DNA of 44,520 nucleotides. Source: a virus. Below, in pieces: positions 23,039 through 33,403 of this stretch. Below the pieces are notes generated by a model. It worked only from the letters and a program-made list of their open reading frames with translations, did not search any database and was not told the origin of the DNA. Numbering within the stretch: the stretch's first letter is position 1; each line of letters begins with the position of its first letter. The position numbers and the translations under genes are program-made. The stretch is taken from the UHGV virus genome UHGV-0202726; one strand, written 5' to 3'.

Positions 23039-24439
23039 TTAACCGTCCACATTAAAATCAATACGGGTGATATATTTACTCCCCCACGCTGAATTAGCCC
23101 GTGGTATGGCGGCGTAGCCATCAACAGCCTGAACGTTTACCACAGAGCTGTCGGAGTAGGTGATGTCGATACTTGTTGCGCCGTTCATTGCTACTTTTGC
23201 AGTTGCGGAATACCGAGTAACGGGCGATGGTCCTGTGATTATAGGTGATGTCGCGAAACTACTACGCTCCATTTGCGGGGCACAAGACAGTACCCCACTA
23301 ACCCCATCTCCGATGAATGATGACCCTGTTGCGGAGTTATACACCCATGCCATTATGCCTAAGTATGCCGACCCTTTAGCTGACGAGAATGTTATTGTTT
23401 CTGTTACGCGGAACCATCCGCTACCGAGGTTAGTCACAGTAGTGCCGCTCGCCCCGGAAGACACCTCGCCGTCAGACAGGTCTACAACAGAATCGCCTAG
23501 TACCCCTATATCATCATATACGCGCAACCGTATAAACCTGTACCCGTAAGACTTGAAACACCAAGAGAATGTATACTTTGATCCATCCATAAAACTACCG
23601 GTAACTATCTGTTGTACAGAATGACTTCCGGATACCGCAGTTGGTATCAGGCTGTACGTGTAGTCCGTAGACAGTTCGTCAGAGGCCCAAATCACGTTTA
23701 CTCTTGTCCTGCTCCACGATGTTTCGGAAAGATTAGATGATTGTGTTAGAAAATTGACCACCCCATTGTCAGGAGGTACGCGCCCGACAGCAACCCCATC
23801 GATAAACGTAAGAGGCCATTCATCGGCAGCGGACTGCACAAGATTGCCGTTGCGGTTGATGTAATAAACCTGCGGCCCGTCATACACAATGCGGCTATCA
23901 AGAGTCGACGCCAGAAGGTTAATCGGCGGGTATCCTGCAGGCCCTTCATTGCTCCAGATGCGAGGGAACGTCGTCTCATAGTTCGCATATATTTTCAGGA
24001 AACTACCCAGACAATCCCCGTAACAACCGTACAAATCTGGAAGATTGTTAATCAGGCACTGGTTCTCTTGGTCCTGGAACGGCGATTTCTCGGCGGTTGC
24101 CGTGAAGGTAATCGTCCAGTTAATGCCGTCTTCGGTGGACTCCGCGATGGTGGATGTGATTGTTACCTGATAATCTTCGATGCCCATGCCGAAGTCGTGC
24201 GCCATCCAGAAACTTGACGCACCGCCGTCTACTTTTTCGAGGAACGACAGAAACGCCTGTCGCCCCATTGCGGATGTAATCAGGGTTACGCTAACAGGGA
24301 ACACGTCGTAATACGTGTCACGGCCCTGACGCACCCCGCCACCGGCTAAATCAACACTCCAGACGTTGTTGCGTCTGGTCATTGAGTAGCCTTTTGACAC
24401 CACTGGCTTAAGGCTACGTGGGAAATATAAGTCGCTCAT
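23039..24439 (-). CDS. minor tail protein (distal tail protein-like)
   Basis: 466 aa directly downstream of the tape measure gene. Confidence 0.5.
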   Translation of the reverse strand: MSDLYFPRSLKPVVSKGYSMTRRNNVWSVDLAGGGVRQGRDTYYDVFPVSVTLITSAMGRQAFLSFLEKVDGGASSFWMAHDFGMGIEDYQVTITSTIAESTEDGINWTITFTATAEKSPFQDQENQCLINNLPDLYGCYGDCLGSFLKIYANYETTFPRIWSNEGPAGYPPINLLASTLDSRIVYDGPQVYYINRNGNLVQSAADEWPLTFIDGVAVGRVPPDNGVVNFLTQSSNLSETSWSRTRVNVIWASDELSTDYTYSLIPTAVSGSHSVQQIVTGSFMDGSKYTFSWCFKSYGYRFIRLRVYDDIGVLGDSVVDLSDGEVSSGASGTTVTNLGSGWFRVTETITFSSAKGSAYLGIMAWVYNSATGSSFIGDGVSGVLSCAPQMERSSFATSPIITGPSPVTRYSATAKVAMNGATSIDITYSDSSVVNVQAVDGYAAIPRANSAWGSKYITRIDFNVDG

Positions 24440-26751
24440 TACTTGAACCCCGGCGCATTTCTTGTGGCCTTGCGGGCCTTGCTAATCTTACTGTTGCTGT
24501 TCTGCAAAGAGGCTGCCACTTGCTCTTCGATGATGATACGAAGACGCCCTTCATCATCTTGTTCGGTGGATACGTTGCTGATTTGAGAACTCGTGTTGTT
24601 TACGATAGTAACATTAGACGGGCCTGAAGAAGACCCGTTTTGCCCCATAATTTCTTTCATCTGCTGGGCGGTGCGCACACGGGATGCGCCGGCCGGCATG
24701 ATAACTTCCGGTTTACCGCGTTCTGCGATGGTGGAAGCCTGCCCTGCGGATAACTGTCCGCCCTGTTCACGCGCGGACCGGATAGCGGAAACCTGCGCCA
24801 TACCCGCCCCAACGGCAGCGGCAGCGGCTACGGGGGCCAGGAACGGGCCAACTACAGGGATAGCCGCCGTGGACTTGTACGCCTCGATAGCTGCGGTGTA
24901 CGTGGCTATGGTGGCCTGTACGATAGCGAATGCCTTATACGCACCAGAGGCCTCGCCCAACGCAGACCCGATGTTTGACGCCATGTTACCGAAGGCGGTT
25001 GCCGTTGCGTCGGCACGCTTGGTGGCGTATTGCTCGTTGATGGCGTTAAGCGCGGCCTGATACTGCTTCTCACTAATAAGCCCTTGCTCACGGTACTTAT
25101 CTGCGACCGCCAGTTTCTGCTGCTCCTGGATGTCGAGAAGCTCAAGCTCAGTAGCGTTCTGGCCAATAATCTGAGCCATGAAGTCGTCGCCTTTCTGCTT
25201 TTTCTCCTGCCGTTCTTTCTCGCGCTTATCCAATTCTTGCTGCCGTGCGGTATCCGCCTCCAGCATAATCTGAGTTTTGGCGTTTTCATACTGCTGCTGG
25301 CTTATCGTTCCGGCGCGGTTGAACTCTTCAAGTTTCGCCAGTTTCTGCTCTTCGGCCGCCGTGATGCGAGAAATTTCATCTCCGGTTGTACGGTCAACCG
25401 TAGCGAGGAAATCTTCCGCGGCTTTCTTCTGGCGTTGTGCCGCCGTTTCTTCACGTTTGGCCTGCGCCGCCAGACGTTTCTCGTTCGATTTAGCCTCGCG
25501 GTCTGCCTTCGCTTTTTCGGTCGCGTCGATGCGAGCGATGTCTTGCTGTGCTTCCGTGTCACGGGCTGCGTTATACGCGGCTATCTGTTCTTTGGTGACA
25601 GCTTCACGCTTAGCGAATGCCTGCTTGTCCAGTTCAGCTTGCGCCCGGATGCGTTCGCGGTCGCTTAAGATGGCAATTTGCTGATTCTTGACGATAGCTT
25701 CGTTCTGTTCCTGGAACCTCTGCGTGGTTGAGTTAACGTTACGACCGAGATTCTTTTGGGCCTCTGCTGCCGCGTTTGCTGACTTCTCCGCGTTCTCCAG
25801 TGCCGTGGCGTTCTTGTTGGCGTTGTCAGTCAGGCGGATAAGTTCCGGGTTCAACTGTTTTGTGTTACCGAGCCAGTCGGTAAACACATCGGCGATGCGG
25901 CGGGCATTCTCGGCGGTTGGCTCTTTGTTAAACGCGCTCTGCGCCGCTATCATCTCCAGCGCCTGGTCACGGTTAACCCCGAACTTACTGCTAAGCTCCG
26001 CTATATTCTGCGCCAGCATGTTGACGCCTACGATGTTACCCTCGTAAGTGCCGCCAAGTTTTTCTAACGTGTCGCCTACATCCGCACCCTTAGAGACCAA
26101 TGCATCGTACTGGCTAATAGCGGATGCCGTGGAGGCTTTCCATGTCTCCCATGACTCGGCGTCCTCGCGGACAGCTTTAGCTGTTTGCTGCGCGATAAGG
26201 TCTGCGTTAGCCTTAGCCAGAGCAAGCTGAGTCTCCGCCGCTTCTCTGCTGATTTGGGTAAGCTGGATAAGGCCGTCTGTCAGTTCGAGGGAGCCAGATG
26301 CCGTTTGCTGGAAAGTATCCTTTAACTGCTTCTGCGCAGCTTCGAGGTCTTTTGAACTGCCTTCTGCTTCGGTTAGTGATTTGTACAGGACACCACCAAT
26401 TGCTGATGCTAGAGCGATTACCGCCCCGAGCACCGCACCACCAGGGCCGAAAGCGCCAGCAAGTTGGGAACCTTGCTGCCCTATCGCAACGAATGCAGAC
26501 GTACCGGATTGCAACTGGACTACCATGTCCTGCACCTGGAAACCAACCTGCCCAGCAGCGTTACGGAACTTAGCGAAACCGTCGGACGCTGCTTTAGAGG
26601 TGGCGGTGTTAACTTTATTAACATCCGGCGTTAGTTTGTTTACAGATGTGTCCGCCCGGTCTGCGGATGCCGCCATAGCGTCAAGCTGTTTGGCAGCGAC
26701 GTCAGCCCCTTCAGTTTTTACTCTGGCGATTAGGGAAGCCGTATCAGCCAT
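24439..26751 (-). CDS. tail tape measure protein
   Basis: About 770 aa, Ala/Gln/Glu-rich coiled-coil, Gly-rich hydrophobic segment near C-terminus; ATG at 26751 with GAGGG RBS preferred over track TTG at 26766. Confidence 0.8.
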   Translation of the reverse strand: MADTASLIARVKTEGADVAAKQLDAMAASADRADTSVNKLTPDVNKVNTATSKAASDGFAKFRNAAGQVGFQVQDMVVQLQSGTSAFVAIGQQGSQLAGAFGPGGAVLGAVIALASAIGGVLYKSLTEAEGSSKDLEAAQKQLKDTFQQTASGSLELTDGLIQLTQISREAAETQLALAKANADLIAQQTAKAVREDAESWETWKASTASAISQYDALVSKGADVGDTLEKLGGTYEGNIVGVNMLAQNIAELSSKFGVNRDQALEMIAAQSAFNKEPTAENARRIADVFTDWLGNTKQLNPELIRLTDNANKNATALENAEKSANAAAEAQKNLGRNVNSTTQRFQEQNEAIVKNQQIAILSDRERIRAQAELDKQAFAKREAVTKEQIAAYNAARDTEAQQDIARIDATEKAKADREAKSNEKRLAAQAKREETAAQRQKKAAEDFLATVDRTTGDEISRITAAEEQKLAKLEEFNRAGTISQQQYENAKTQIMLEADTARQQELDKREKERQEKKQKGDDFMAQIIGQNATELELLDIQEQQKLAVADKYREQGLISEKQYQAALNAINEQYATKRADATATAFGNMASNIGSALGEASGAYKAFAIVQATIATYTAAIEAYKSTAAIPVVGPFLAPVAAAAAVGAGMAQVSAIRSAREQGGQLSAGQASTIAERGKPEVIMPAGASRVRTAQQMKEIMGQNGSSSGPSNVTIVNNTSSQISNVSTEQDDEGRLRIIIEEQVAASLQNSNSKISKARKATRNAPGFK

Positions 26752-27115
26752 CTTCTCTGCCCTCAAATATTCCGTCTAAGCCCATGATAACCTCGGCTTC
26801 GAACAAACTTATGCCGTAACCGGCGACATCACGAAACGCTACCAAATCTTGCCATTTGAGCGCATCGCGCGGGATTATAACGATAGTATCATCTGTTTCG
26901 CGCTGTAGGAATTTAATGGCACGGTATTTCTCGAACACGTCGATAAGAGAAACGGGGCATTCTGGCCCCGTCGCTTCTTTCATCTGCGGTTCTTTAATCA
27001 CGCCCATTGCAATCAAAGCCGCCTGGTGCCCCGCCGCGATGTCGTCGAATTGCTTACGTTTCTGGCGGTCGACAAAGCACCATTGCGCAAATTCATACAG
27101 CGCTTTTACTTTTCC
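26744..27115 (-). CDS. putative -1 frameshift extension of the tail assembly chaperone (GT-like product)
   Basis: Reading frame in -1 register relative to the upstream chaperone gene, open from 27130 through 26744 with no start codon near its 5' end; GGAAAAG heptamer precedes the chaperone stop. Confidence 0.35.
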   Translation of the reverse strand, partial: GKVKALYEFAQWCFVDRQKRKQFDDIAAGHQAALIAMGVIKEPQMKEATGPECPVSLIDVFEKYRAIKFLQRETDDTIVIIPRDALKWQDLVAFRDVAGYGISLFEAEVIMGLDGIFEGREDG

Positions 27116-27522
27116 GAGAGTTTCTCGCGGCTATCGGTGTGGTGCTTAACTACGGCTTCTGCCAACCCACTGTACTGGTCAAACAGGTTAGCCAGCGCCT
27201 CTTTGCTGAACGGTTCGTCGAATGACCAACCGGTGACGATTTCCACGGCAAGCTGCTTGTTCAGGTCCATCACCCGCCAGCCCTTCTCATCATTATAACG
27301 CGCCCAGTTATTCAGTGCCTCACACTCTTTATCTAATGGCGCAAGTTCTTCCGTAAGGCGTCGAATTGCCGTTGTGTAGGCGCGGCCCGCGCGAACCCCG
27401 ACATCACAATCAGGACCAATGACCTGCAACCATTCTCCGGAGTCTTTACCACTCGGCAGAAGGATAGGCATTTTAGTACCGGCAGCGTGTCGGTCAGCAA
27501 AATAGAAATCAGAAAGTTTCAT
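27106..27522 (-). CDS. tail assembly chaperone (lambda G-like)
   Basis: 138 aa immediately upstream of the tape measure; AAGGA RBS. Confidence 0.55.
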   Translation of the reverse strand: MKLSDFYFADRHAAGTKMPILLPSGKDSGEWLQVIGPDCDVGVRAGRAYTTAIRRLTEELAPLDKECEALNNWARYNDEKGWRVMDLNKQLAVEIVTGWSFDEPFSKEALANLFDQYSGLAEAVVKHHTDSREKLSEK

Positions 27523-27630
27523 TCTTTAGTCCTTTGGTTAAGAGGTTACAGGTTAAGGTTGACGCGCCAGACGGGAACCACCCGCTTTTCGTGTGCGACA
27601 CTAGGCGCAAACTTATTCTAGCACACTACT

Positions 27631-27659
27631 TGCACACCCCGATATAATAGGGTACTATT
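27631..27659 (+). promoter_or_regulatory. promoter, TTGCAC-N17-TACTAT class (rightward) for the plus-strand island
   Basis: TTGCAC, 17-nt spacer, TACTAT; 36-bp element 32/36 identical to 5151-5186 in inverted orientation; followed by GAGGAA RBS and ATG 27687. Confidence 0.5.
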
Positions 27660-27686
27660 CACCTGTAACTTACTGAGGAAATAATT

Positions 27687-28013
27687 ATGCGTAAATTAGT
27701 GTTAGCTCTTGGTTTTATGTCTTTTGCTACTTTTGGGTCTCCGTGTGAACAGGTGTTTAGTGAATCCGTTCTTATGACTTCTGGTGTGCTTGATAGAGCC
27801 GACCCTACTATTGTAAAGGCATTTAAGGACTCTACCGTTCGCGAGTGTGAGGCAGCCGTAGAGGTTGGTAAATCGGGCCTGCCTCCGCAAGCCGTAACAT
27901 ACACGGTAATACGTTCTGTAGAGAAAAACGGAGACGCGGTTTACAGCCTACTGACCGCCACCCGCCTGCAAATGGTAATGACTGGGTGGGCAATAGGCGC
28001 AGAAAGTAAATAG
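27687..28013 (+). CDS. hypothetical secreted protein (N-terminal signal peptide-like)
   Basis: MRKLVLALGFMSFATFG hydrophobic N-terminus; GAGGAA RBS. Confidence 0.5.
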   Translation: MRKLVLALGFMSFATFGSPCEQVFSESVLMTSGVLDRADPTIVKAFKDSTVRECEAAVEVGKSGLPPQAVTYTVIRSVEKNGDAVYSLLTATRLQMVMTGWAIGAESK

Positions 28014-28077: not shown

Positions 28078-29208
28078 ATGGCCAGGAAGAAAATAACCGA
28101 CGAACAGTTGCAGGAAGAATTGAACGCCGGTATGAAGAATATCGACATCGCCCGTAAATACGGCATCTCAGACCGCGTTATTCGCATCCGTAAAGCGAAG
28201 CTGGCTAAGAAAGGCGTAGGCCACGGGCGCGACGTTAGTCACCTTGTGCCAGATGGCTACAAGATTAAAGGAACGTCGTCACTTGTGGACGAGTTCGGCA
28301 ACACTAAGTTGCAATGGGTTAAGACCGACACAGACGCAGAACGTCAGGTCGAGTTGATGAAAGCCGTAATCGAAGGCATGAAGTCAGAGATTACTCCGGT
28401 TGCACCTGTTAAAGCAACCCGAGCCAAACGCGACGATAAACTGCTTAATCTTTACACTGTATCCGATTTTCATCTCGGTATGCTGGCCTGGGCCGACGAG
28501 AGCGGCGACGACTGGGATATGAAGATTGCGGAAGACCTGTTCTCTCGCTGGTTCGACGCGGCGTTTCAGAAAGCACCGGATGCGGGGACTGGGGTTATTA
28601 ACCTGCTGGGCGACTTCGCGCACTTCGATAGTCTGGTTGCCGTTACACCTGCAAGCGGTCACGCCCTTGACGCCGACACCCGTTACCAGAAACTTGTCCG
28701 CTACATGATTCGCATGGTCCGCCGTGTTGTCGATATGGCGCTGGTTAAGCATAAAAATGTTCGCTTGCTTATCGTGCAAGGGAATCACGACGAAAGTGGC
28801 ATGATTTGGTTGGCTGAGATGTTCAGTACGCTGTATGACAATGAGCCGCGTGTGTTCGTCGATACGTCACCGGATGTTTACAAGATGGTGCAACACGGCA
28901 AAACGACGCTGTTCTTTCACCACGGACATAAAGCACGCTTCGACGCTATCGAACCGGTTATGATCGCCAAGTTCCGCAAAGCGTTCGGTGAGAGTGTTTA
29001 CAGCTACGCCCATGTAGGACACCTGCACCATCAGAAGATTGTGGAAAGCCGTAACATGATTGTTGAGCAACACCGCACCTTAGCGGCTAAAGACGCCTAC
29101 GCCTCCCGCGGAGGTTGGATGTCGGGCCGTAGCGCAAATGTAATTACTTATAGCGCCGAATTTGGCGAGGTCGCACGTTTAACTATTTCACCGGAGATGC
29201 TGGGATGA
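28078..29208 (+). CDS. calcineurin-like metallophosphoesterase with N-terminal HTH-like segment
   Basis: DFHLG, GDFAHFD, GNHDE, HHGH, GHLHH motifs in the order expected for metallophosphoesterases; N-terminal NIDIARKYGISDRVIRIRKAKL HTH-like; GAGGAA RBS. Confidence 0.65.
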   Translation: MARKKITDEQLQEELNAGMKNIDIARKYGISDRVIRIRKAKLAKKGVGHGRDVSHLVPDGYKIKGTSSLVDEFGNTKLQWVKTDTDAERQVELMKAVIEGMKSEITPVAPVKATRAKRDDKLLNLYTVSDFHLGMLAWADESGDDWDMKIAEDLFSRWFDAAFQKAPDAGTGVINLLGDFAHFDSLVAVTPASGHALDADTRYQKLVRYMIRMVRRVVDMALVKHKNVRLLIVQGNHDESGMIWLAEMFSTLYDNEPRVFVDTSPDVYKMVQHGKTTLFFHHGHKARFDAIEPVMIAKFRKAFGESVYSYAHVGHLHHQKIVESRNMIVEQHRTLAAKDAYASRGGWMSGRSANVITYSAEFGEVARLTISPEMLG

Positions 29209-29690
29209 AAGATATTGTGATTTTCGATTTAGACGGGACATTGGCGGATGGTACTCATCGTTTACACCTGCTGCCGAAAGATAACTACGGCGAAACCTGG
29301 GCGTGGAAACCATTTAACATGGCGTGCAAAGATGATGAACCAATTATAGATAACATCGAACTGTGTAACGCCCTTAATCGCTGCTACGCCGTTGTTATTT
29401 TAACGGGCCGCAGTGATGACGCGGAAAAAGAAACAAGAATGTGGTTGCAGCGCCACCGCGTCGAATTTTACCAGTTAATCATGCGCAGCAAACACGACAA
29501 CAGAAAAGACATCGTAATTAAGGAAGAGGTGCTACGTGCTATCGGGCTGGAAAGAATCTTGTGCGCATTCGACGACTCTCCCGCGGTAATAAAGCATTTC
29601 CGCGAACTCGGCATAACCACTCACGCGGTTACCGAATATGACTGTAACGGGAACTCTTCACACTTAAAGCCACATGGGAGCGATAAATAA
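29205..29690 (+). CDS. HAD-superfamily phosphatase, polynucleotide 3'-phosphatase-like
   Basis: VIFDLDGTLA (DxDGT), TGR, KD..IKEE, FDDS motifs; resemblance to the T4 Pnkp phosphatase domain as recalled from memory; ATGA overlap with upstream gene. Confidence 0.6.
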   Translation: MKDIVIFDLDGTLADGTHRLHLLPKDNYGETWAWKPFNMACKDDEPIIDNIELCNALNRCYAVVILTGRSDDAEKETRMWLQRHRVEFYQLIMRSKHDNRKDIVIKEEVLRAIGLERILCAFDDSPAVIKHFRELGITTHAVTEYDCNGNSSHLKPHGSDK

Positions 29691-30259
29691 TGGCTAAGGT
29701 AATTATTCTTAATGGTCCTGCGGGTTGCGGGAAAGACACGCTTGCTATGGCACTGGTAGAAATGGGCTTTGCGAAAGGAACTACCAGTTTCAAGAATCCA
29801 ATGTTCAATATTGCTTTGGCGGCGTTAGGTCCGGATGCTTACCATGAGTTTCTCGACGGCTACGACGACCGGGCACGGAAAGAAAAGCCAGAATGTTTCC
29901 TTAATGGGTTGTCGCGACGTCAGTTCATGATTGCTATCTCGGAGCAATTCATTAAGCCTGTACTTGGCAATGATTATTTCGGTAAGTATCTTGCTGAAAA
30001 CTTGCCAGACGGCAACGAAGTTTTTGTAGTGTCTGATGGCGGATTCGCCAGTGAAGTGACTCCTATCGTCGCCGCGGGTCATGACGTGAGAATCGTTCGC
30101 CTTCATCGTGACGGCTATACGTTTGAGGATGACAGCCGTGGTTATCTGTACGATATTGATGGGGTAGTGCACCATGACGTCGCCGTCGTTCCGGGCGAGA
30201 TTACATTAACAGCGGCTGCGATTGCTAATAGAATCCTGGGGATTTACCCAAATGCGTGA
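29690..30259 (+). CDS. P-loop kinase, dNMP kinase-like
   Basis: GPAGCGKDT Walker A resembling the T4 gp1 dNMP kinase GKDT P-loop (from memory); start overlaps upstream stop. Confidence 0.6.
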   Translation: MAKVIILNGPAGCGKDTLAMALVEMGFAKGTTSFKNPMFNIALAALGPDAYHEFLDGYDDRARKEKPECFLNGLSRRQFMIAISEQFIKPVLGNDYFGKYLAENLPDGNEVFVVSDGGFASEVTPIVAAGHDVRIVRLHRDGYTFEDDSRGYLYDIDGVVHHDVAVVPGEITLTAAAIANRILGIYPNA

Positions 30260-30431: not shown

Positions 30432-30458
30432 AAGGCCCCTTTCGGGGCCTTAGTTTTA
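30432..30458. terminator. bidirectional rho-independent terminator
   Basis: AAGGCCCC-TTTC-GGGGCCTT followed by AGTTTTA; between convergent island and major tail gene. Confidence 0.65.
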
Positions 30459-31622
30459 TGCGTAGGTGATACGCTGGATAACAATAGACGACTGGTACTG
30501 GTTGCCGGTAGCCTGGCCTTCAATGGACTGAGTGATTGACTCAGGCCCCCCAATCTCTGGTGTAACCGCCGTGAGTTCTGCACGTTTCAAACTGAAAGAC
30601 ATAGCTCCGTTTACCCCCGCCAGAATAGAGTTAATCTCCACCTGCTGTTCGTTGATAAACTTCTGAATCATCGCCATGTCATACAGCTTACCGGAGATGG
30701 AGAAGGTGTTAGCTGCACGGCTACGCTCCACAAACGCTACGTTAGTGTTGCCTAGTTCGAACTGCGCAGATGCGCTGTTATCGTTGGTGATGGTAAGGCT
30801 ATCGCAACGCAACGGCGTAGAGCCATCGAACACGGAAACGTCAACCGAAGAGAACGGCTCATCGCCAAAAGTAACAGATGAGAAGTTGGAATCGGTCGGC
30901 GGCGTAGTGAGAATCTCCTGACTGCGACCTATGAATGGGAAGCTGCCAGTTACCATCGCGTTAACAGCCTGTTCGATGGTAAAACCAGAAACTTCCACGC
31001 CTTTGGTTAACGTGTACGCGTCAGTACCGCCGCACTGGCCTTTGTACCAGGTAAGGATAGAGAACGTCTTACACGTGTTACCGGTTTCCAGCGTGTCGCC
31101 GGTTTTAGCCTTACTAGTTTTTGTCTCGGTGGTCAGGGTGTGTTGGATGCCTGCACCAGTAACAACCGTAGCCGTTACTGCAGTAACAATAAATGGTTTT
31201 GCGTTATCGCCTGTTAAATCGGTAAATGCAATCAGGTCGCCTACCACAACTCCGTCAGTGATAAAACTGCCGGTAGCGCGTGTGAACGTCTTGCCTGCGG
31301 GTGCGACGGTAATCGACAGACTGGACAGGGAAACACCGGATCGCCACGTAGAGCCTAAAGCACCCGCCAGCCAGTCATCCTGGCTTTTCGAGCTAAGCTC
31401 GATCGCGTATTCACCGCTAACCTGTTTGTTACCGGTGCGGATGGATGTAGTTTCACGGCTGCCGTCCAGTTCGTTGGAGGTCAGCGTGTCGCGGGTGATA
31501 GCAGGAACACCGCCAGTGTTACGCAACGGTGACCAGACCGGGTTAGCCGGTGTTACGCCCGGGGTGACTTCCGCCACATAGAATTGCGCGGTATTCGCGC
31601 CCTTAAAAGGAGTTGTAGCCAT
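30456..31622 (-). CDS. major tail protein
   Basis: About 388 aa, Thr/Ser/Gly-rich; follows the tail terminator-like gene; ATG at 31622 with AGAGG RBS preferred over track GTG 31628. Confidence 0.65.
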   Translation of the reverse strand: MATTPFKGANTAQFYVAEVTPGVTPANPVWSPLRNTGGVPAITRDTLTSNELDGSRETTSIRTGNKQVSGEYAIELSSKSQDDWLAGALGSTWRSGVSLSSLSITVAPAGKTFTRATGSFITDGVVVGDLIAFTDLTGDNAKPFIVTAVTATVVTGAGIQHTLTTETKTSKAKTGDTLETGNTCKTFSILTWYKGQCGGTDAYTLTKGVEVSGFTIEQAVNAMVTGSFPFIGRSQEILTTPPTDSNFSSVTFGDEPFSSVDVSVFDGSTPLRCDSLTITNDNSASAQFELGNTNVAFVERSRAANTFSISGKLYDMAMIQKFINEQQVEINSILAGVNGAMSFSLKRAELTAVTPEIGGPESITQSIEGQATGNQYQSSIVIQRITYA

Positions 31623-31624
31623 AT

Positions 31625-32041
31625 TCACAGCCTCTTGGTGAATGCAATAAAGTTAATTGACAATGGTCGTTTTGCCCATCCGTTTTCTACAATCAGTGGC
31701 CCCAGGCTAACCGATTGAACCTCGGCGCAGATGTTGTTACGTGAAAATGACTTACCTGCTTTAAACGCCGTGTTAAGTAAGTCTGCCATTTTATTGATCG
31801 GCGCGCTACCTTTCACCGATGCGTAGTTAATATCTACCTGGTAGACGCCAGCGCGTTGTTCCGTGAAGAACAAATCAGCCTGTTCCGTATCCGCGAGTAA
31901 CATGTAACTAGCCAGATACGGCGTATCGGTTGACGTCGGCGCGTCGATGTTTTCAAGTGCTACCTTGATGCCGTTGGTGGTTCCGAAGGCTACCAGCGGC
32001 ACGTCGAACGCTTTTGTTAAGTCCTCAAAGTAGCCCATCAT
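31625..32041 (-). CDS. tail completion / tail terminator-like protein
   Basis: 138 aa immediately upstream of the major tail gene; ATGATG overlap with upstream stop. Confidence 0.45.
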   Translation of the reverse strand: MMGYFEDLTKAFDVPLVAFGTTNGIKVALENIDAPTSTDTPYLASYMLLADTEQADLFFTEQRAGVYQVDINYASVKGSAPINKMADLLNTAFKAGKSFSRNNICAEVQSVSLGPLIVENGWAKRPLSINFIAFTKRL

Positions 32042-32433
32042 TTCACCTTGTTGGCTTCTTCGTTAATGAGTTGCTGGAAACGCGATATATTCACCCGGAC
32101 AAATCCTTGCGGCGCCTGTTGCGACCAGCCGTACTCCAGACGCTGTATATACGGCAGGTTATTGGTAAGTGTGAACTCGCTCCAGTCTGTAGCGGTGTTT
32201 ATAACCGCAGTAACACGCTGGATTGTTGCTGTTCCTTGCGGTGCGCCGTAGGTGGTAGTTTCCTGTGACGGAGTACTGCCAGACGCAAACCAGTTATTTC
32301 TCGCACGACCAGTATCAACTGGCGTCGCCTTTATGATAGCGGAAAACAGCTTGATAGACACCTGACGCATCACCTTCTCAGGGTTCTTCTTCGCCTTTTC
32401 CACGAACTTAGAGACATCAAGCGCGAAACTCAT
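32038..32433 (-). CDS. head-tail joining protein (HK97 gp10-like suggested)
   Basis: 131 aa in the connector gene run; weak motif similarity. Confidence 0.5.
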   Translation of the reverse strand: MSFALDVSKFVEKAKKNPEKVMRQVSIKLFSAIIKATPVDTGRARNNWFASGSTPSQETTTYGAPQGTATIQRVTAVINTATDWSEFTLTNNLPYIQRLEYGWSQQAPQGFVRVNISRFQQLINEEANKVK

Positions 32434-32789
32434 TTTCTCACCTGAATAAAGTATGCCACAACATCGTCGTTAACCATCTTCTTCTCGATGGCTTCGATGG
32501 ACCATTGCTCTCCGCCGAATTGTACCTTGTCTTCCATCTTCGGAACGACACTGCAATCCACTTTGACAATCATGTCGCCAGCCTGGATCGTCGTACCGTT
32601 TACCAGTCCCGCGTTTACCGGAACTGGAACGGCCTTCAACGGCAACACTTCATCGTCAGACCAGACGTACTCACCGAGAACTTCATCCCATACTTTCGAA
32701 CCAGCGCGAACAAGAGATACCGTACTGCCGAATTTGGTCAGCAGGCGCGTACCCACGCCTTGCATACGTTTACTGAAAGCGGTGCTCAT
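32430..32789 (-). CDS. head-tail adaptor-like protein
   Basis: ATG at 32789 with GGAGG RBS and ATGA overlap preferred over track start 32843. Confidence 0.45.
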   Translation of the reverse strand: MSTAFSKRMQGVGTRLLTKFGSTVSLVRAGSKVWDEVLGEYVWSDDEVLPLKAVPVPVNAGLVNGTTIQAGDMIVKVDCSVVPKMEDKVQFGGEQWSIEAIEKKMVNDDVVAYFIQVRK

Positions 32790-33403
32790 CAGGCGGCCTC
32801 CAGTCTCGAGATAACCAGTAACGCTGATGGTGCTGTGCCCCATGCGGTCACGGTAGCCGCTTGCGGGTATACGCCGCCGTAGTTGCTTCCGGAGCTATCT
32901 CGCATAATCTGAACGGCAAACGTCTGGCCTGCTGTCGGGTTAATAACGACGCGGGATTCAATCGGAATCGTTACGTCGGCGCTGACCAGTTTAGTAGCTG
33001 CGGGGGAGCCGTACTGAGCGCCGTTAAGGAGAATGCGTGATAAAAGGATTGATGTACCACTCGCCCCTGTACGCCCCGCCTGTAACTTGATACGAACGGC
33101 ATAGTTACCTGCGGTGTTGAATGTAACAAGCCCCGCAGCATTAATCATTACCGGGTCTGACGCGCTACCCTGCGCGGAGCCGAAAGTTAACTGCAACGCC
33201 GTATCTACTGCGGAAGGCGTTTGTGTTACGGTAGACGCAGCGCGGAGAACTTCAACCTCTTTAACACCCGGAGTGGCGTAAATAGGTGAGTCTGCCATCT
33301 GTGTCATTACTTCGCGCAATGCGGCGGGGGTAATAAGTCCGGTGGGGTTATCAGGGAGGTTCGCGCCGATAAGGGTAAACATCTCTGTTTTAGTCTTCGC
33401 CAT
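32789..33403 (-). CDS. hypothetical virion structural protein
   Basis: 204 aa in the connector gene run. Confidence 0.45.
   Translation of the reverse strand: MAKTKTEMFTLIGANLPDNPTGLITPAALREVMTQMADSPIYATPGVKEVEVLRAASTVTQTPSAVDTALQLTFGSAQGSASDPVMINAAGLVTFNTAGNYAVRIKLQAGRTGASGTSILLSRILLNGAQYGSPAATKLVSADVTIPIESRVVINPTAGQTFAVQIMRDSSGSNYGGVYPQAATVTAWGTAPSALLVISRLEAA

What the first reader, a model, noticed from the sequence alone, without database searches (positions are those of the whole stretch)
26744..27133. Putative programmed -1 ribosomal frameshift joining the tail chaperone to a T-like extension
The 90-aa ORF at 26744-27016 is in the -1 frame relative to the chaperone gene (27106-27522). 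That frame is open from 27130 through 26744 with no start codon near its 5' end, and the heptamer GGAAAAG (27115-27109, minus strand) lies just before the chaperone stop codon. This mirrors the lambda G/GT arrangement (lambda uses GGGAAAG, as recalled from memory). The heptamer here is non-canonical, with GAA to GGA re-pairing in the P-site.
Basis: inference. Interest (0 to 1): 0.45.

Follow-up and report, generated by a model that had tools for sequence, protein, structure and literature searches.

The report
Tail chaperone G/GT programmed frameshift site
This is the well-known ribosomal -1 frameshift that tailed phages use to make a long and a short tail-assembly chaperone from one gene; it is ordinary and already annotated in a sister phage, but its signal is a minimal A_AAG slip site followed by a conserved long-range RNA helix that I found described in none of the papers I could search.

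Summary
The window is a Kagunavirus genome, 99.5% identical to phage SZH-1. The chaperone gene G (27522-27106, minus strand) ends ...GAA AAG TAA. The -1 frame is open from 27130 to 26744 and encodes a 121-aa Phage_TAC_18 domain that ends on the tape-measure start codon.

The frameshift reading is strongly supported. In 80 loci (31 lineages) found through the T domain alone:
- NNA_AAG is invariant, while the preceding codon varies (GAA, GCA, GTA, TCA, AAA).
- T-frame protein conservation starts at the first codon after the slip.
- No start codon is conserved.

RefSeq phage K1H already annotates the same fusion as a joined CDS, and PHROG 15027 is a 259-aa fusion profile.

The conserved core is the tetramer A_AAG, usually followed directly by TAG or TAA.

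New here: five bases after the slip site begins a conserved 12-16 bp helix whose partner lies about 180 nt downstream. In Jersey-like relatives the partner lies about 110 nt downstream instead. Compensatory changes support both versions. It is probably the frameshift stimulator.

Nothing was tested experimentally. Overall this is an ordinary feature with a modestly interesting signal.

The parts
27106..27522 (-). Gene G: tail assembly chaperone, 138 aa, 15.6 kDa. This is the zero-frame product.
   Evidence: ORF list and translation. Pfam Phage_TAC_4 E=7.9e-9. PHROG 15027 positions 1-138. Annotated 'tail assembly chaperone' in SZH-1, K1H and Bas70. Mass.
27109..27112 (-). Slip site A_AAG: the last base of GAA plus the Lys codon AAG.
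   Evidence: NNA_AAG is present in 80 of 80 loci found through the T domain. In 31 lineages the third base of the preceding codon is always A although that codon varies, and AAG is never AAA. Two lineages carry canonical heptamers at exactly this position: G_GGA_AAG (L041, L067) and A_AAA_AAG (L207, L211).
27106..27108 (-). G stop codon TAA, directly 3' of the slip site. With the next two bases it forms the 5-nt spacer 27108-27104.
   Evidence: The stop is adjacent in 79 of 80 loci; L188 has it one codon later. TAG occurs 61 times, TAA 18 and TGA never. The fourth base is A 60, C 17, T 3 and G 0 times.
27088..27103 (-). 5' arm of the long-range helix, GCGCUGUAUGAAUUUG. It codes A-L-Y-E-F of T and starts 5 nt after the slip site.
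   Evidence: The inverted-repeat finder reports arms 27089-27103 and 26900-26914, 93% complementary. The helix is in the MFE and centroid fold. Mean pair probability is 0.92 in contexts of 230-600 nt. GCG and YUG are invariant at synonymous positions in 31 lineages.
26900..26915 (-). 3' arm of the long-range helix, UAAAUUCCUACAGCGC. It codes K-F-L-Q-R of T.
   Evidence: RNAalifold finds the helix de novo on 21 lineages. 96% of cells are paired, 4 pairs show compensatory changes, 0 of 500 shuffles reach the observed values, and slid controls give 18-50%. Arm duplex energy is -18.3 kcal/mol.
26744..27109 (-). T extension read in the -1 frame after the slip: 121 aa plus the TGA stop. The GT fusion is join(27522..27109, 27109..26744), 259 aa, 29.3 kDa.
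   Evidence: Translation. Pfam Phage_TAC_18 E=8e-18. PHROG 15027 positions 139-259. K1H joined CDS of 779 nt, i.e. 260 codons after a -1 shift. Mass.
26951..26972 (-). GC-rich hairpin inside the long-range loop, GACGGGGCC-AGAAUG-CCCCGUU. It codes G-P-E-C-P and was flagged as terminator-like.
   Evidence: Consensus scan. The GGGC/GCCC pairing is kept in all 16 group-B sequences and appears in the window MFE fold. Its role was not established.
24439..26751 (-). Tape measure protein gene. Its ATG (26751-26749) overlaps the T stop.
   Evidence: Sequence, ORF list, annotation of the orthologues.

Best explanation
Most ribosomes translating gene G read ...GAA AAG and terminate at the adjacent TAA, giving the 138-aa chaperone G. 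A small fraction slip back one base while tRNA-Lys is on AAG (A_AAG re-read as AAA). They continue with GUA in the -1 frame and make a 259-aa G-T fusion (junction ...LSEK|VKALYEF). By analogy with lambda, the G part of this fusion would hold the tape measure protein and the T part would recruit the major tail protein. The slip is probably stimulated by a helix of 12-16 bp that begins 5 nt after AAG and is closed by a partner about 180 nt downstream inside the T coding region. With AAG in the A site, the first pairs of this helix sit at about +12, at the mRNA entrance of the ribosome, where they resist translocation. Because the stop codon is adjacent to the slip site, nearly all ribosomes leave before the T region, so this large structure can stay folded. 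Shown here: the anatomy, the conservation of A_AAG, the absence of a conserved start codon, and the covarying helix. Inferred: that slippage occurs and at what rate, that the helix stimulates it, and what G and GT do.
For: Identity and context:
- The window is 99.5% identical to Kagunavirus SZH-1.
- The G/T/tape-measure gene order matches the annotated relatives.

Fusion already annotated:
- K1H RefSeq carries a joined CDS of 779 nt, ORF19B.
- PHROG 15027 is a 259-position fusion profile with its boundary at 138/139.

Domain membership: Phage_TAC_4 and Phage_TAC_18 both score above their Pfam cut-offs.

Slip site. The 80 loci were found with T-domain peptides unrelated to the slip site.
- All 80 have NNA_AAG.
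- In 31 lineages the third base before AAG is A 31 of 31 times across 5 different codons, and AAG occurs 31 of 31 times, while other Lys columns mix AAA and AAG.
- Canonical heptamers G_GGA_AAG and A_AAA_AAG arose at the same position in two lineages.

No independent initiation:
- T-frame conservation begins at codon 1.
- First start codons are scattered from codon 5 to codon 95.

Helix:
- The best partner of the 3' element lies at +198 in 19 of 31 lineages (+199 in two more) and at +124 to +128 in 8 others.
- RNAalifold finds both versions de novo.
- Group A: 96% of cells paired, 4 compensated pairs, 0 of 500 shuffles reach the observed values, slid controls 18-50%.
- Group B: 99% paired, with C-G changed to U-A in 5 sequences.
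- 18 G-U cells mean the pairing works only in the mRNA sense strand.
- Window fold: z = -3.5, helix in the MFE and centroid. Pair probability is 0.92 up to 600 nt of context.
- Single-sequence folds predict the helix in all 21 group-A sequences and 14 of 16 group-B sequences.

Literature:
- A_AAG is the most shift-prone tetramer in E. coli, 5.6% with a 3' pseudoknot and near background without one (PMC4066793).
- The lambda G:GT ratio is 30:1, spacers of 5-9 nt are typical, and E. coli has a single tRNA-Lys (PMC5009743).
Against: - There is no experimental evidence for this phage group: no papers hold both 'Kagunavirus' and 'frameshift'.
- G and GT are not virion proteins, so virion proteomics would not show them.
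- The heptamer G_GAA_AAG is not canonical. A published genome note on a Guernseyvirinae-like phage stated that there is 'no canonical slippery sequence' (PMC6776780).
- Several GenBank records annotate the downstream ORF as a separate gene.
- Both helix arms lie in conserved coding sequence, so part of their conservation is protein-driven.
- Most of the covariation may trace to a few evolutionary events.
- A helix closing a loop of about 180 nt is unusual for a bacterial frameshift stimulator, and it could serve another purpose.
Confidence: 0.85

Rival explanations
1. T is made as a separate protein, not as a fusion. This would happen either by termination-reinitiation at the conserved CUG/UUG nine bases after the G stop (27100-27098), or by internal initiation at TTG 27016 or at the ATG three codons downstream of it.
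For: Bas70 annotates a separate CDS that starts at that CTG, and SZH-1 annotates an 88-aa ORF from the ATG. The Leu codon is always CTG or TTG in 31 lineages.
Against: - This does not explain why the third base of the codon before AAG is invariably A, or why AAG is never AAA.
- It does not explain the canonical heptamers that arose at that position.
- There is no conserved Shine-Dalgarno sequence.
- The ATG codon is Ile in several lineages, and the first start codon is at codon 95 in L027.
- The Phage_TAC_18 match and the protein conservation begin upstream of those internal starts.
- The CTG/TTG restriction is explained by pairing with CAG/CAA in the 3' arm.
Confidence: 0.04
2. The frameshift is real but works as a 'shifty stop'. 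Peptidyl-tRNA-Lys slips in the P site while the slowly decoded UAG/UAA waits in the A site. The long-range helix is not the stimulator and instead serves mRNA stability, control of tape-measure translation, or attenuation.
For: - The stop is adjacent in 79 of 80 loci.
- TAG, which is rare in E. coli genes by my recollection, is used in 61 of 80 loci. TGA never occurs, although it would keep Val in the T frame.
- The fourth base is A or C in 77 of 80 loci. From memory, these are weak termination contexts (Poole et al. 1995; not checked here).
- A terminator-like hairpin lies inside the loop.
Against: - One lineage (L188) has the stop one codon later yet keeps the 5-nt spacing to the helix.
- Tetramers alone are near background in E. 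coli and need a 3' structure (PMC4066793).
- The helix always starts exactly 5 nt from the slip site, even though its 3' partner has moved between clades. That is hard to explain unless the position relative to the slip site matters.
- The two mechanisms are not mutually exclusive and give the same protein.
Confidence: 0.2
3. The shift is made at the RNA level by transcriptional slippage on the A run, not by the ribosome.
For: There is an A4 run at the site.
Against: The run is only 3-4 A in most lineages, for example GGTAAAG and CAGCAAAG. From established knowledge, productive polymerase slippage needs runs of about 8 or more identical bases. Invariant AAG rather than AAA is the opposite of what a slippage run would favour.
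Confidence: 0.01

Closest known systems
Phage lambda G/GT tail assembly chaperone frameshift and its homologues in long-tailed dsDNA phages (Levin 1993; Xu, Hendrix and Duda 2004, 2013, 2014, as cited in PMC5009743)
   Same: There are two overlapping ORFs directly upstream of the tape measure gene. The second is in the -1 frame, has no start of its own, and ends at the tape-measure start. The slip is on a Lys AAG codon near the end of G. A low-level fusion product is expected.
   Different: Lambda uses the canonical heptamer G_GGA_AAG with the G stop several codons downstream (join position recalled from memory). Here only A_AAG is conserved, the stop is adjacent, and a long-range helix follows. 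G and T show no detectable sequence similarity to lambda G and T: they belong to Pfam Phage_TAC_4 and Phage_TAC_18. The major tail protein gene is not adjacent; four opposite-strand genes intervene.
Escherichia phage K1H ORF19A/ORF19B (RefSeq NC_027994, Kagunavirus)
   Same: This is the orthologous locus, 93.6% identical in DNA. It is annotated as a joined CDS of 779 nt alongside the 417-nt G CDS.
   Different: It is an annotation only. I found no slip site, stimulator or experiment described for it. The window's nearest record, SZH-1, annotates an 88-aa hypothetical protein instead.
Tetra- and hexanucleotide -1 frameshift sites on A_AAG: IS3 (A_AAG plus pseudoknot), IS1222 (G_CGA_AAG), B. subtilis cdd (A_CGA_AAG) (PMC5009743, PMC4066793)
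   Same: A single tRNA-Lys slips from AAG to AAA. Efficiency depends on the 5' codon (NNA_AAG) and on a 3' structure. With a pseudoknot the rate is about 5.6%, close to what a G:GT ratio would need.
   Different: Those stimulators are compact local pseudoknots or stem-loops. Here the closing helix spans about 110 or about 180 nt.
IS911 three-way-junction stimulator, and long-distance pairing in luteovirus, umbravirus and dianthovirus frameshifting (PMC5009743)
   Same: The stimulator is an elaborate or long-range structure whose basal helix lies a few nucleotides 3' of the slip site.
   Different: The IS911 junction is much smaller. The plant-virus interactions join a local stem-loop to a site kilobases away. 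Here a single helix closes a 110-180 nt coding domain in a phage mRNA.
Burkholderia phage KL1 gp18/gp19 (PMC3483164)
   Same: The predicted G/GT slip site lies immediately upstream of the G stop codon.
   Different: KL1 has a canonical heptamer (GGGAAAC), and only a local 35-nt fold was examined.

Membership tests
Lambda-type G/GT tail assembly chaperone frameshift (Xu et al. 2004) | Two overlapping ORFs immediately upstream of the tape measure gene, the second in the -1 frame | tested here: met
   G is 27522-27106. The -1 frame is open 27130-26744. The tape-measure ATG is at 26751. The same layout is seen in K1H, Bas70 and SZH-1.
Lambda-type G/GT tail assembly chaperone frameshift (Xu et al. 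2004) | The downstream ORF has no start codon or RBS of its own that is conserved | tested here: met
   The first start codons lie at codons 5 to 95 depending on lineage. Met35 is replaced by Ile in L014, L016, L027 and L028. Protein conservation starts at codon 1.
Lambda-type G/GT tail assembly chaperone frameshift (Xu et al. 2004) | A canonical X_XXY_YYZ slippery heptamer in the overlap | tested here: not met
   The window has G_GAA_AAG. Only A_AAG is conserved. Canonical heptamers occur at this position only in L041/L067 and L207/L211. Distant relatives use T_TTT_TTC or A_AAT_TTT. A tetramer is an accepted alternative motif (PMC4066793).
Lambda-type G/GT tail assembly chaperone frameshift (Xu et al. 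2004) | The slip site is conserved at synonymous positions among relatives | tested here: met
   The third base of the preceding codon is A in 31 of 31 lineages across 5 codons, and AAG occurs 31 of 31 times.
Lambda-type G/GT tail assembly chaperone frameshift (Xu et al. 2004) | The genes lie between the major tail protein gene and the tape measure gene | tested here: inconclusive
   They are directly upstream of the tape measure gene. However, the putative major tail gene (30456-31628) is separated from G by four plus-strand genes, as in K1H.
Lambda-type G/GT tail assembly chaperone frameshift (Xu et al. 2004) | G and GT are made at a fixed ratio (about 30:1), both are needed for tail assembly, and both are absent from virions | not testable with these tools
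   This needs western blots, reporters and genetics. No published data were found.
Pfam tail assembly chaperone families | Score above the curated gathering threshold | tested here: met
   G: Phage_TAC_4, 36.2 bits against 21.1. T: Phage_TAC_18, 64.8 bits against 27.
Z_ZZN tetranucleotide -1 frameshift signals (A_AAG type: IS3, IS1222) | A_AAG in the zero-frame register, with a 3' structural stimulator 5-9 nt downstream | tested here: met
   The register was confirmed. A covarying helix starts 5 nt downstream. This is computational only.
Z_ZZN tetranucleotide -1 frameshift signals (A_AAG type: IS3, IS1222) | Measured frameshifting that depends on the motif and on the stimulator | not testable with these tools
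   A reporter assay is required.
Shifty-stop frameshifting (P-site slip with a stop codon in the A site) | [quoted passage not shown] | tested here: met
   The stop is adjacent in 79 of 80 loci. TAG occurs 61 times, TAA 18 and TGA 0.
Shifty-stop frameshifting (P-site slip with a stop codon in the A site) | The frameshift rate responds to release-factor activity or stop-codon identity | not testable with these tools
   This needs reporters with altered stops or altered RF1 levels.

The most novel reading that the evidence does not exclude
The G/GT frameshift of Guernseyvirinae phages is driven by a minimal A_AAG slip site abutting the stop codon, plus a long-range helix that starts 5 nt downstream and closes a coding domain of 110-180 nt. 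This architecture is described in none of the papers I could search. The 3' arm has been relocated during evolution (about +198 in Kagunavirus K1H-like lineages, about +124 in Jersey-like lineages) while the 5' arm and its spacing stayed fixed. Placing the stop at the slip site keeps the T region almost free of ribosomes, so the large structure can form. Each frameshifted ribosome would melt it transiently, which could make the G:GT ratio self-limiting.
Probability: 0.4. Interest if true: 0.5.

Novelty: already known. Interest (0 to 1): 0.3.

Why it matters
For annotation: many Kagunavirus and Jerseyvirus records, including the window's nearest relative SZH-1, call the T region a separate hypothetical gene. 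One published note reports no slippery sequence. The conserved A_AAG-stop junction gives a simple rule for annotating the 259-aa fusion correctly.

For recoding biology: the locus offers a natural and easily tested case of a tetranucleotide slip site paired with a covarying long-range helix in an E. coli phage. The two alternative 3' arm positions amount to a natural arm-swap experiment. The frameshift itself is textbook and would not surprise a specialist.

Tried and rejected
- My first RNAalifold run used only +135 nt downstream and found no structure. This was a truncation artefact, corrected by a duplex search over +20 to +260 nt.
- Local hairpins just after the slip site (for example GCGC...GCGC in the window) and a pairing with GCGGCGC at T codons 30-32 are seen in some lineages only. 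They were rejected as not conserved.
- No upstream Shine-Dalgarno-like stimulator is conserved. AAGGAG occurs 10 nt upstream only in L019 and L246.
- The apparent invariance of GCGCTGT in the first sample was partly a sampling effect. The unbiased set shows GCGTTG and ACGCTG variants, and these variants turned out to be compensated in the 3' arm.
- 'The fourth base after the stop is only A or C' does not hold strictly: T occurs in 3 of 80 loci.
- A motif scan of IMG/VR with AAAGTARNNGCGCTGTA gave mostly chance hits. L057, which looked like a second family, is an ordinary gene with its own AGGAGG-ATG.
- The big protein search with the fusion returned only G-like proteins at 50-64% identity and no annotated fusions, so it was uninformative.
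- Rfam has no match in 26600-27300.
- No PDB relative was found by sequence.
- The sigma-70 scan found no convincing promoter upstream of G.
- Licznar et al. 2003, on NNA_AAG efficiencies, is not held in the library.
Full report
**What is there**

The window is a Kagunavirus genome (Guernseyvirinae). The 1.6 kb around the finding is 99.5% identical to Escherichia phage SZH-1 and 93-95% identical to K1H, the Bas70-76 phages and many others.

On the minus strand:
- A 138-aa gene runs from 27522 to 27106 and ends ...CTC TCG GAA AAG TAA.
- The -1 frame has a TAG at 27133-27131 and is then open to a TGA at 26746-26744.
- Its first possible start codons are a TTG at 27016 and the ATG three codons further on, codons 32 and 35 after the putative slip.
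- The end of this frame overlaps the ATG of the tape measure gene (ATGGCTGA, ATG at 26751).

**What the two reading frames encode**

The 138-aa protein matches Pfam Phage_TAC_4 (E=8e-9). The -1 frame product matches Phage_TAC_18 (E=8e-18). Both score above the curated cut-offs.

PHROG 15027 is a 259-position 'tail assembly chaperone' profile.

Annotation of the orthologous locus differs between records:
- RefSeq K1H has both a 417-nt CDS and a joined CDS spanning 779 nt. That gives 260 codons only if one base is read twice.
- Bas70 annotates a separate second chaperone gene.
- SZH-1 annotates an 88-aa hypothetical protein.
- A genome note on a related phage says there is 'no canonical slippery sequence' (PMC6776780).

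**Comparative test of the frameshift**

I collected relatives in two independent ways:
- through the G protein, giving 49 IMG/VR loci at 99% down to 30% identity;
- through peptides from the middle and the end of T that have nothing to do with the slip site, giving 80 loci.

Results in the second, unbiased set:
- All 80 loci have NNA_AAG at the junction, and 79 have TAG or TAA directly after it.
- Clustering at under 88% nucleotide identity gives 31 lineages. In these the codon before AAG is GAA (19), GCA (8), GTA (2), TCA (1) or AAA (1). Its third base is A in 31 of 31.
- The Lys codon is AAG in 31 of 31, whereas other conserved Lys columns mix AAA and AAG freely.
- Two lineages have turned the site into textbook heptamers at exactly this position: G_GGA_AAG (L041, L067) and A_AAA_AAG (L207, L211).
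- T-frame amino-acid conservation starts at the first post-slip codon, V-x-A-L-Y-x-F/Y-A-x-W.
- No start codon is conserved. The Met at codon 35 is Ile in four lineages, and L027 has no ATG, GTG or TTG before codon 95.

Distant relatives (30-35% G identity) use ordinary heptamers (T_TTT_TTC, A_AAT_TTT) 24-57 nt before the stop. The gene pair is thus a normal G/GT pair whose signal was remodelled in this clade.

**The slip site**

The conserved unit is the tetramer A_AAG, not the heptamer.

This fits what is known for E. coli:
- A_AAG is by far the most shift-prone Z_ZZN tetramer.
- It gives 5.6% frameshifting with a 3' pseudoknot and close to background without one (PMC4066793).
- NNA_AAG hexamers are used naturally by IS1222 and occur in B. 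subtilis cdd.
- The behaviour rests on the single tRNA-Lys, whose modified U34 reads AAG weakly (PMC5009743).
- A few percent is what a lambda-like G:GT ratio of 30:1 needs.

**The downstream helix (new here)**

In the 31 lineages, Ala codon 3 of T is always GCG and Leu codon 4 is always CTG or TTG, although other conserved Ala and Leu columns use all synonyms.

A first RNAalifold run cut at +135 nt found nothing. A duplex search over +20 to +260 nt then showed that this element has a complementary partner at a fixed distance:
- +198 nt in 19 of 31 lineages and +199 in two more; I call these 21 lineages group A;
- +124 to +128 nt in 8 others, the core of group B.

The remaining two lineages, L238 and L241, carry the same ACAGCGC arm in the group-B alignment. 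For them the duplex search picked partners at +234 and +86 instead, and single-sequence folding supports the helix in L241 but not in L238.

Group A (+198, 21 lineages including the window):
- RNAalifold finds the helix de novo.
- For the 12-bp core, 96% of cells are paired, four pairs have compensatory changes, none of 500 shuffles reaches any of the five observed measures, and sliding the partner by 1-3 columns gives 18-50% pairing.
- Some compensations change amino acids on both sides. In L235, UUGAA pairs with UUCAA. In L207, CAUAA pairs with UUAUG.

Group B (+124, Jersey-like, 16 sequences):
- The 7-bp core is 99% paired.
- The CTG-to-TTG change is matched by CAGCGC-to-CAACGC in all five sequences that carry it.

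Across the helix, 18 cells are G-U pairs. These would be A-C mismatches on the other strand, so the pairing is meaningful only in the mRNA.

In the window itself:
- The arms are 27103-27088 and 26915-26900. They form 8 pairs, a 1x1 mismatch, then 7 more pairs, with a duplex energy of -18.3 kcal/mol.
- The helix is in the MFE and centroid folds of the 216-nt domain (z = -3.5; 0 of 200 shuffles fold as well).
- Its mean pair probability stays at 0.92 when 230 to 600 nt of downstream context are folded.

The helix always begins exactly 5 nt after AAG, even in L188 where the stop lies one codon later. That is within the usual 5-9 nt spacer range (PMC5009743). Rfam has no family here.

**Mechanism proposed**

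- With AAG in the A site, the first helix pairs lie at about +12 from the P-site codon, at the entrance of the mRNA channel. Resistance to unwinding during translocation favours re-pairing of tRNA-Lys on AAA. This step is inferred.
- Ribosomes that do not slip meet the stop at once and leave. The T region therefore carries few ribosomes, and a structure closed over 110-180 nt can persist. This step is also inferred.
- The adjacent stop may add a 'shifty stop' contribution. TAG is strongly preferred (61 of 80). TGA is never used, although it would keep Val in T. The next base is A or C in 77 of 80. I cannot separate these contributions by computation, and both routes give the same protein.

**Comparison and novelty**

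The frameshift is a member of the lambda G/GT class and is already annotated in K1H, so the finding as stated is known.

It departs from the classic description in four ways:
- a tetramer rather than a heptamer;
- the stop abutting the slip site; a stop directly after a canonical heptamer has been predicted for Burkholderia phage KL1 (PMC3483164);
- the major tail gene separated from G by four opposite-strand genes;
- the long-range helix.

I found no description of that helix. Searches for frameshifting together with Kagunavirus, Guernseyvirinae or Jerseyvirus, and for tail chaperones together with stem-loop, long-range or pseudoknot, gave nothing relevant. The literature tool does not cover subscription journals, so this absence is weak evidence.

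The nearest analogues of the signal are IS3 (A_AAG plus a pseudoknot), the IS911 three-way junction, and the long-distance pairings of plant RNA viruses.

**Verdict**

- The feature is ordinary and already known at the annotation level.
- The signal architecture is a modestly interesting and readily testable variant.
- Nothing here is experimental.

Noticed in passing
window 32425-32445 (minus strand); ORFs 32430-32843 and 32038-32433: There is a second 'A-run plus stop' junction...CAG GTG AGA AAA TGA, with the next ORF's ATG overlapping it (AAAATGA). RefSeq K1H annotates the orthologous pair (ORF12/ORF13, 'tail completion or Neck1 protein') as a joined CDS of 752 nt, which implies another -1 shift. 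The second ORF has its own ATG and a GGTGAG Shine-Dalgarno-like sequence, so a fusion is not required.
   Followed up: partly
window 26951-26972 (minus strand): A GC-rich hairpin, GACGGGGCC-AGAAUG-CCCCGUU, followed by a U-rich stretch, was flagged as terminator-like inside the T ORF. It codes the conserved G-P-E-C-P motif. Its GGGC/GCCC pairing is kept in all 16 group-B sequences, and it lies inside the long-range loop. In several relatives the tail is more U-rich (..CUAUUUUU). Possible roles are an attenuator upstream of the tape measure gene or part of the stimulatory domain.
   Followed up: partly
window 27106-27108 and the equivalent position in loci L173-L252: The stop codon after the slip site is TAG in 61 loci, TAA in 18 and TGA in none of 80, although TGA would keep Val (GUG) in the T frame. 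The next base is A 60, C 17, T 3 and G 0 times. The cause is unexplained. It may reflect selection on termination efficiency.
   Followed up: partly
window 28078-30259 (plus strand), between 27522 and 30456: The tail module is split. The putative major tail gene (30456-31628, minus strand) and the terminator gene are separated from G by plus-strand genes annotated in K1H as exonuclease, polynucleotide kinase, ATP-binding protein and a hypothetical protein. G is therefore the first gene of its transcription unit. The consensus scan found no convincing sigma-70 promoter in 27523-27700.
   Followed up: no
loci L048, L050, L051, L052: Distant G/T relatives (30-35% identity) carry canonical heptamers (T_TTT_TTC, A_AAT_TTT, T_TTT_TTT) 24-57 nt before the G stop rather than A_AAG next to the stop. 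The signal was therefore replaced within one protein family.
   Followed up: partly
locus L188 (IMGVR_UViG_2162886012_000023), around 1196-1215: This is the only lineage in which the G stop is not adjacent to the slip site (GCA AAG TTA TAG). The 5-nt distance from AAG to the helix is nevertheless unchanged.
   Followed up: no
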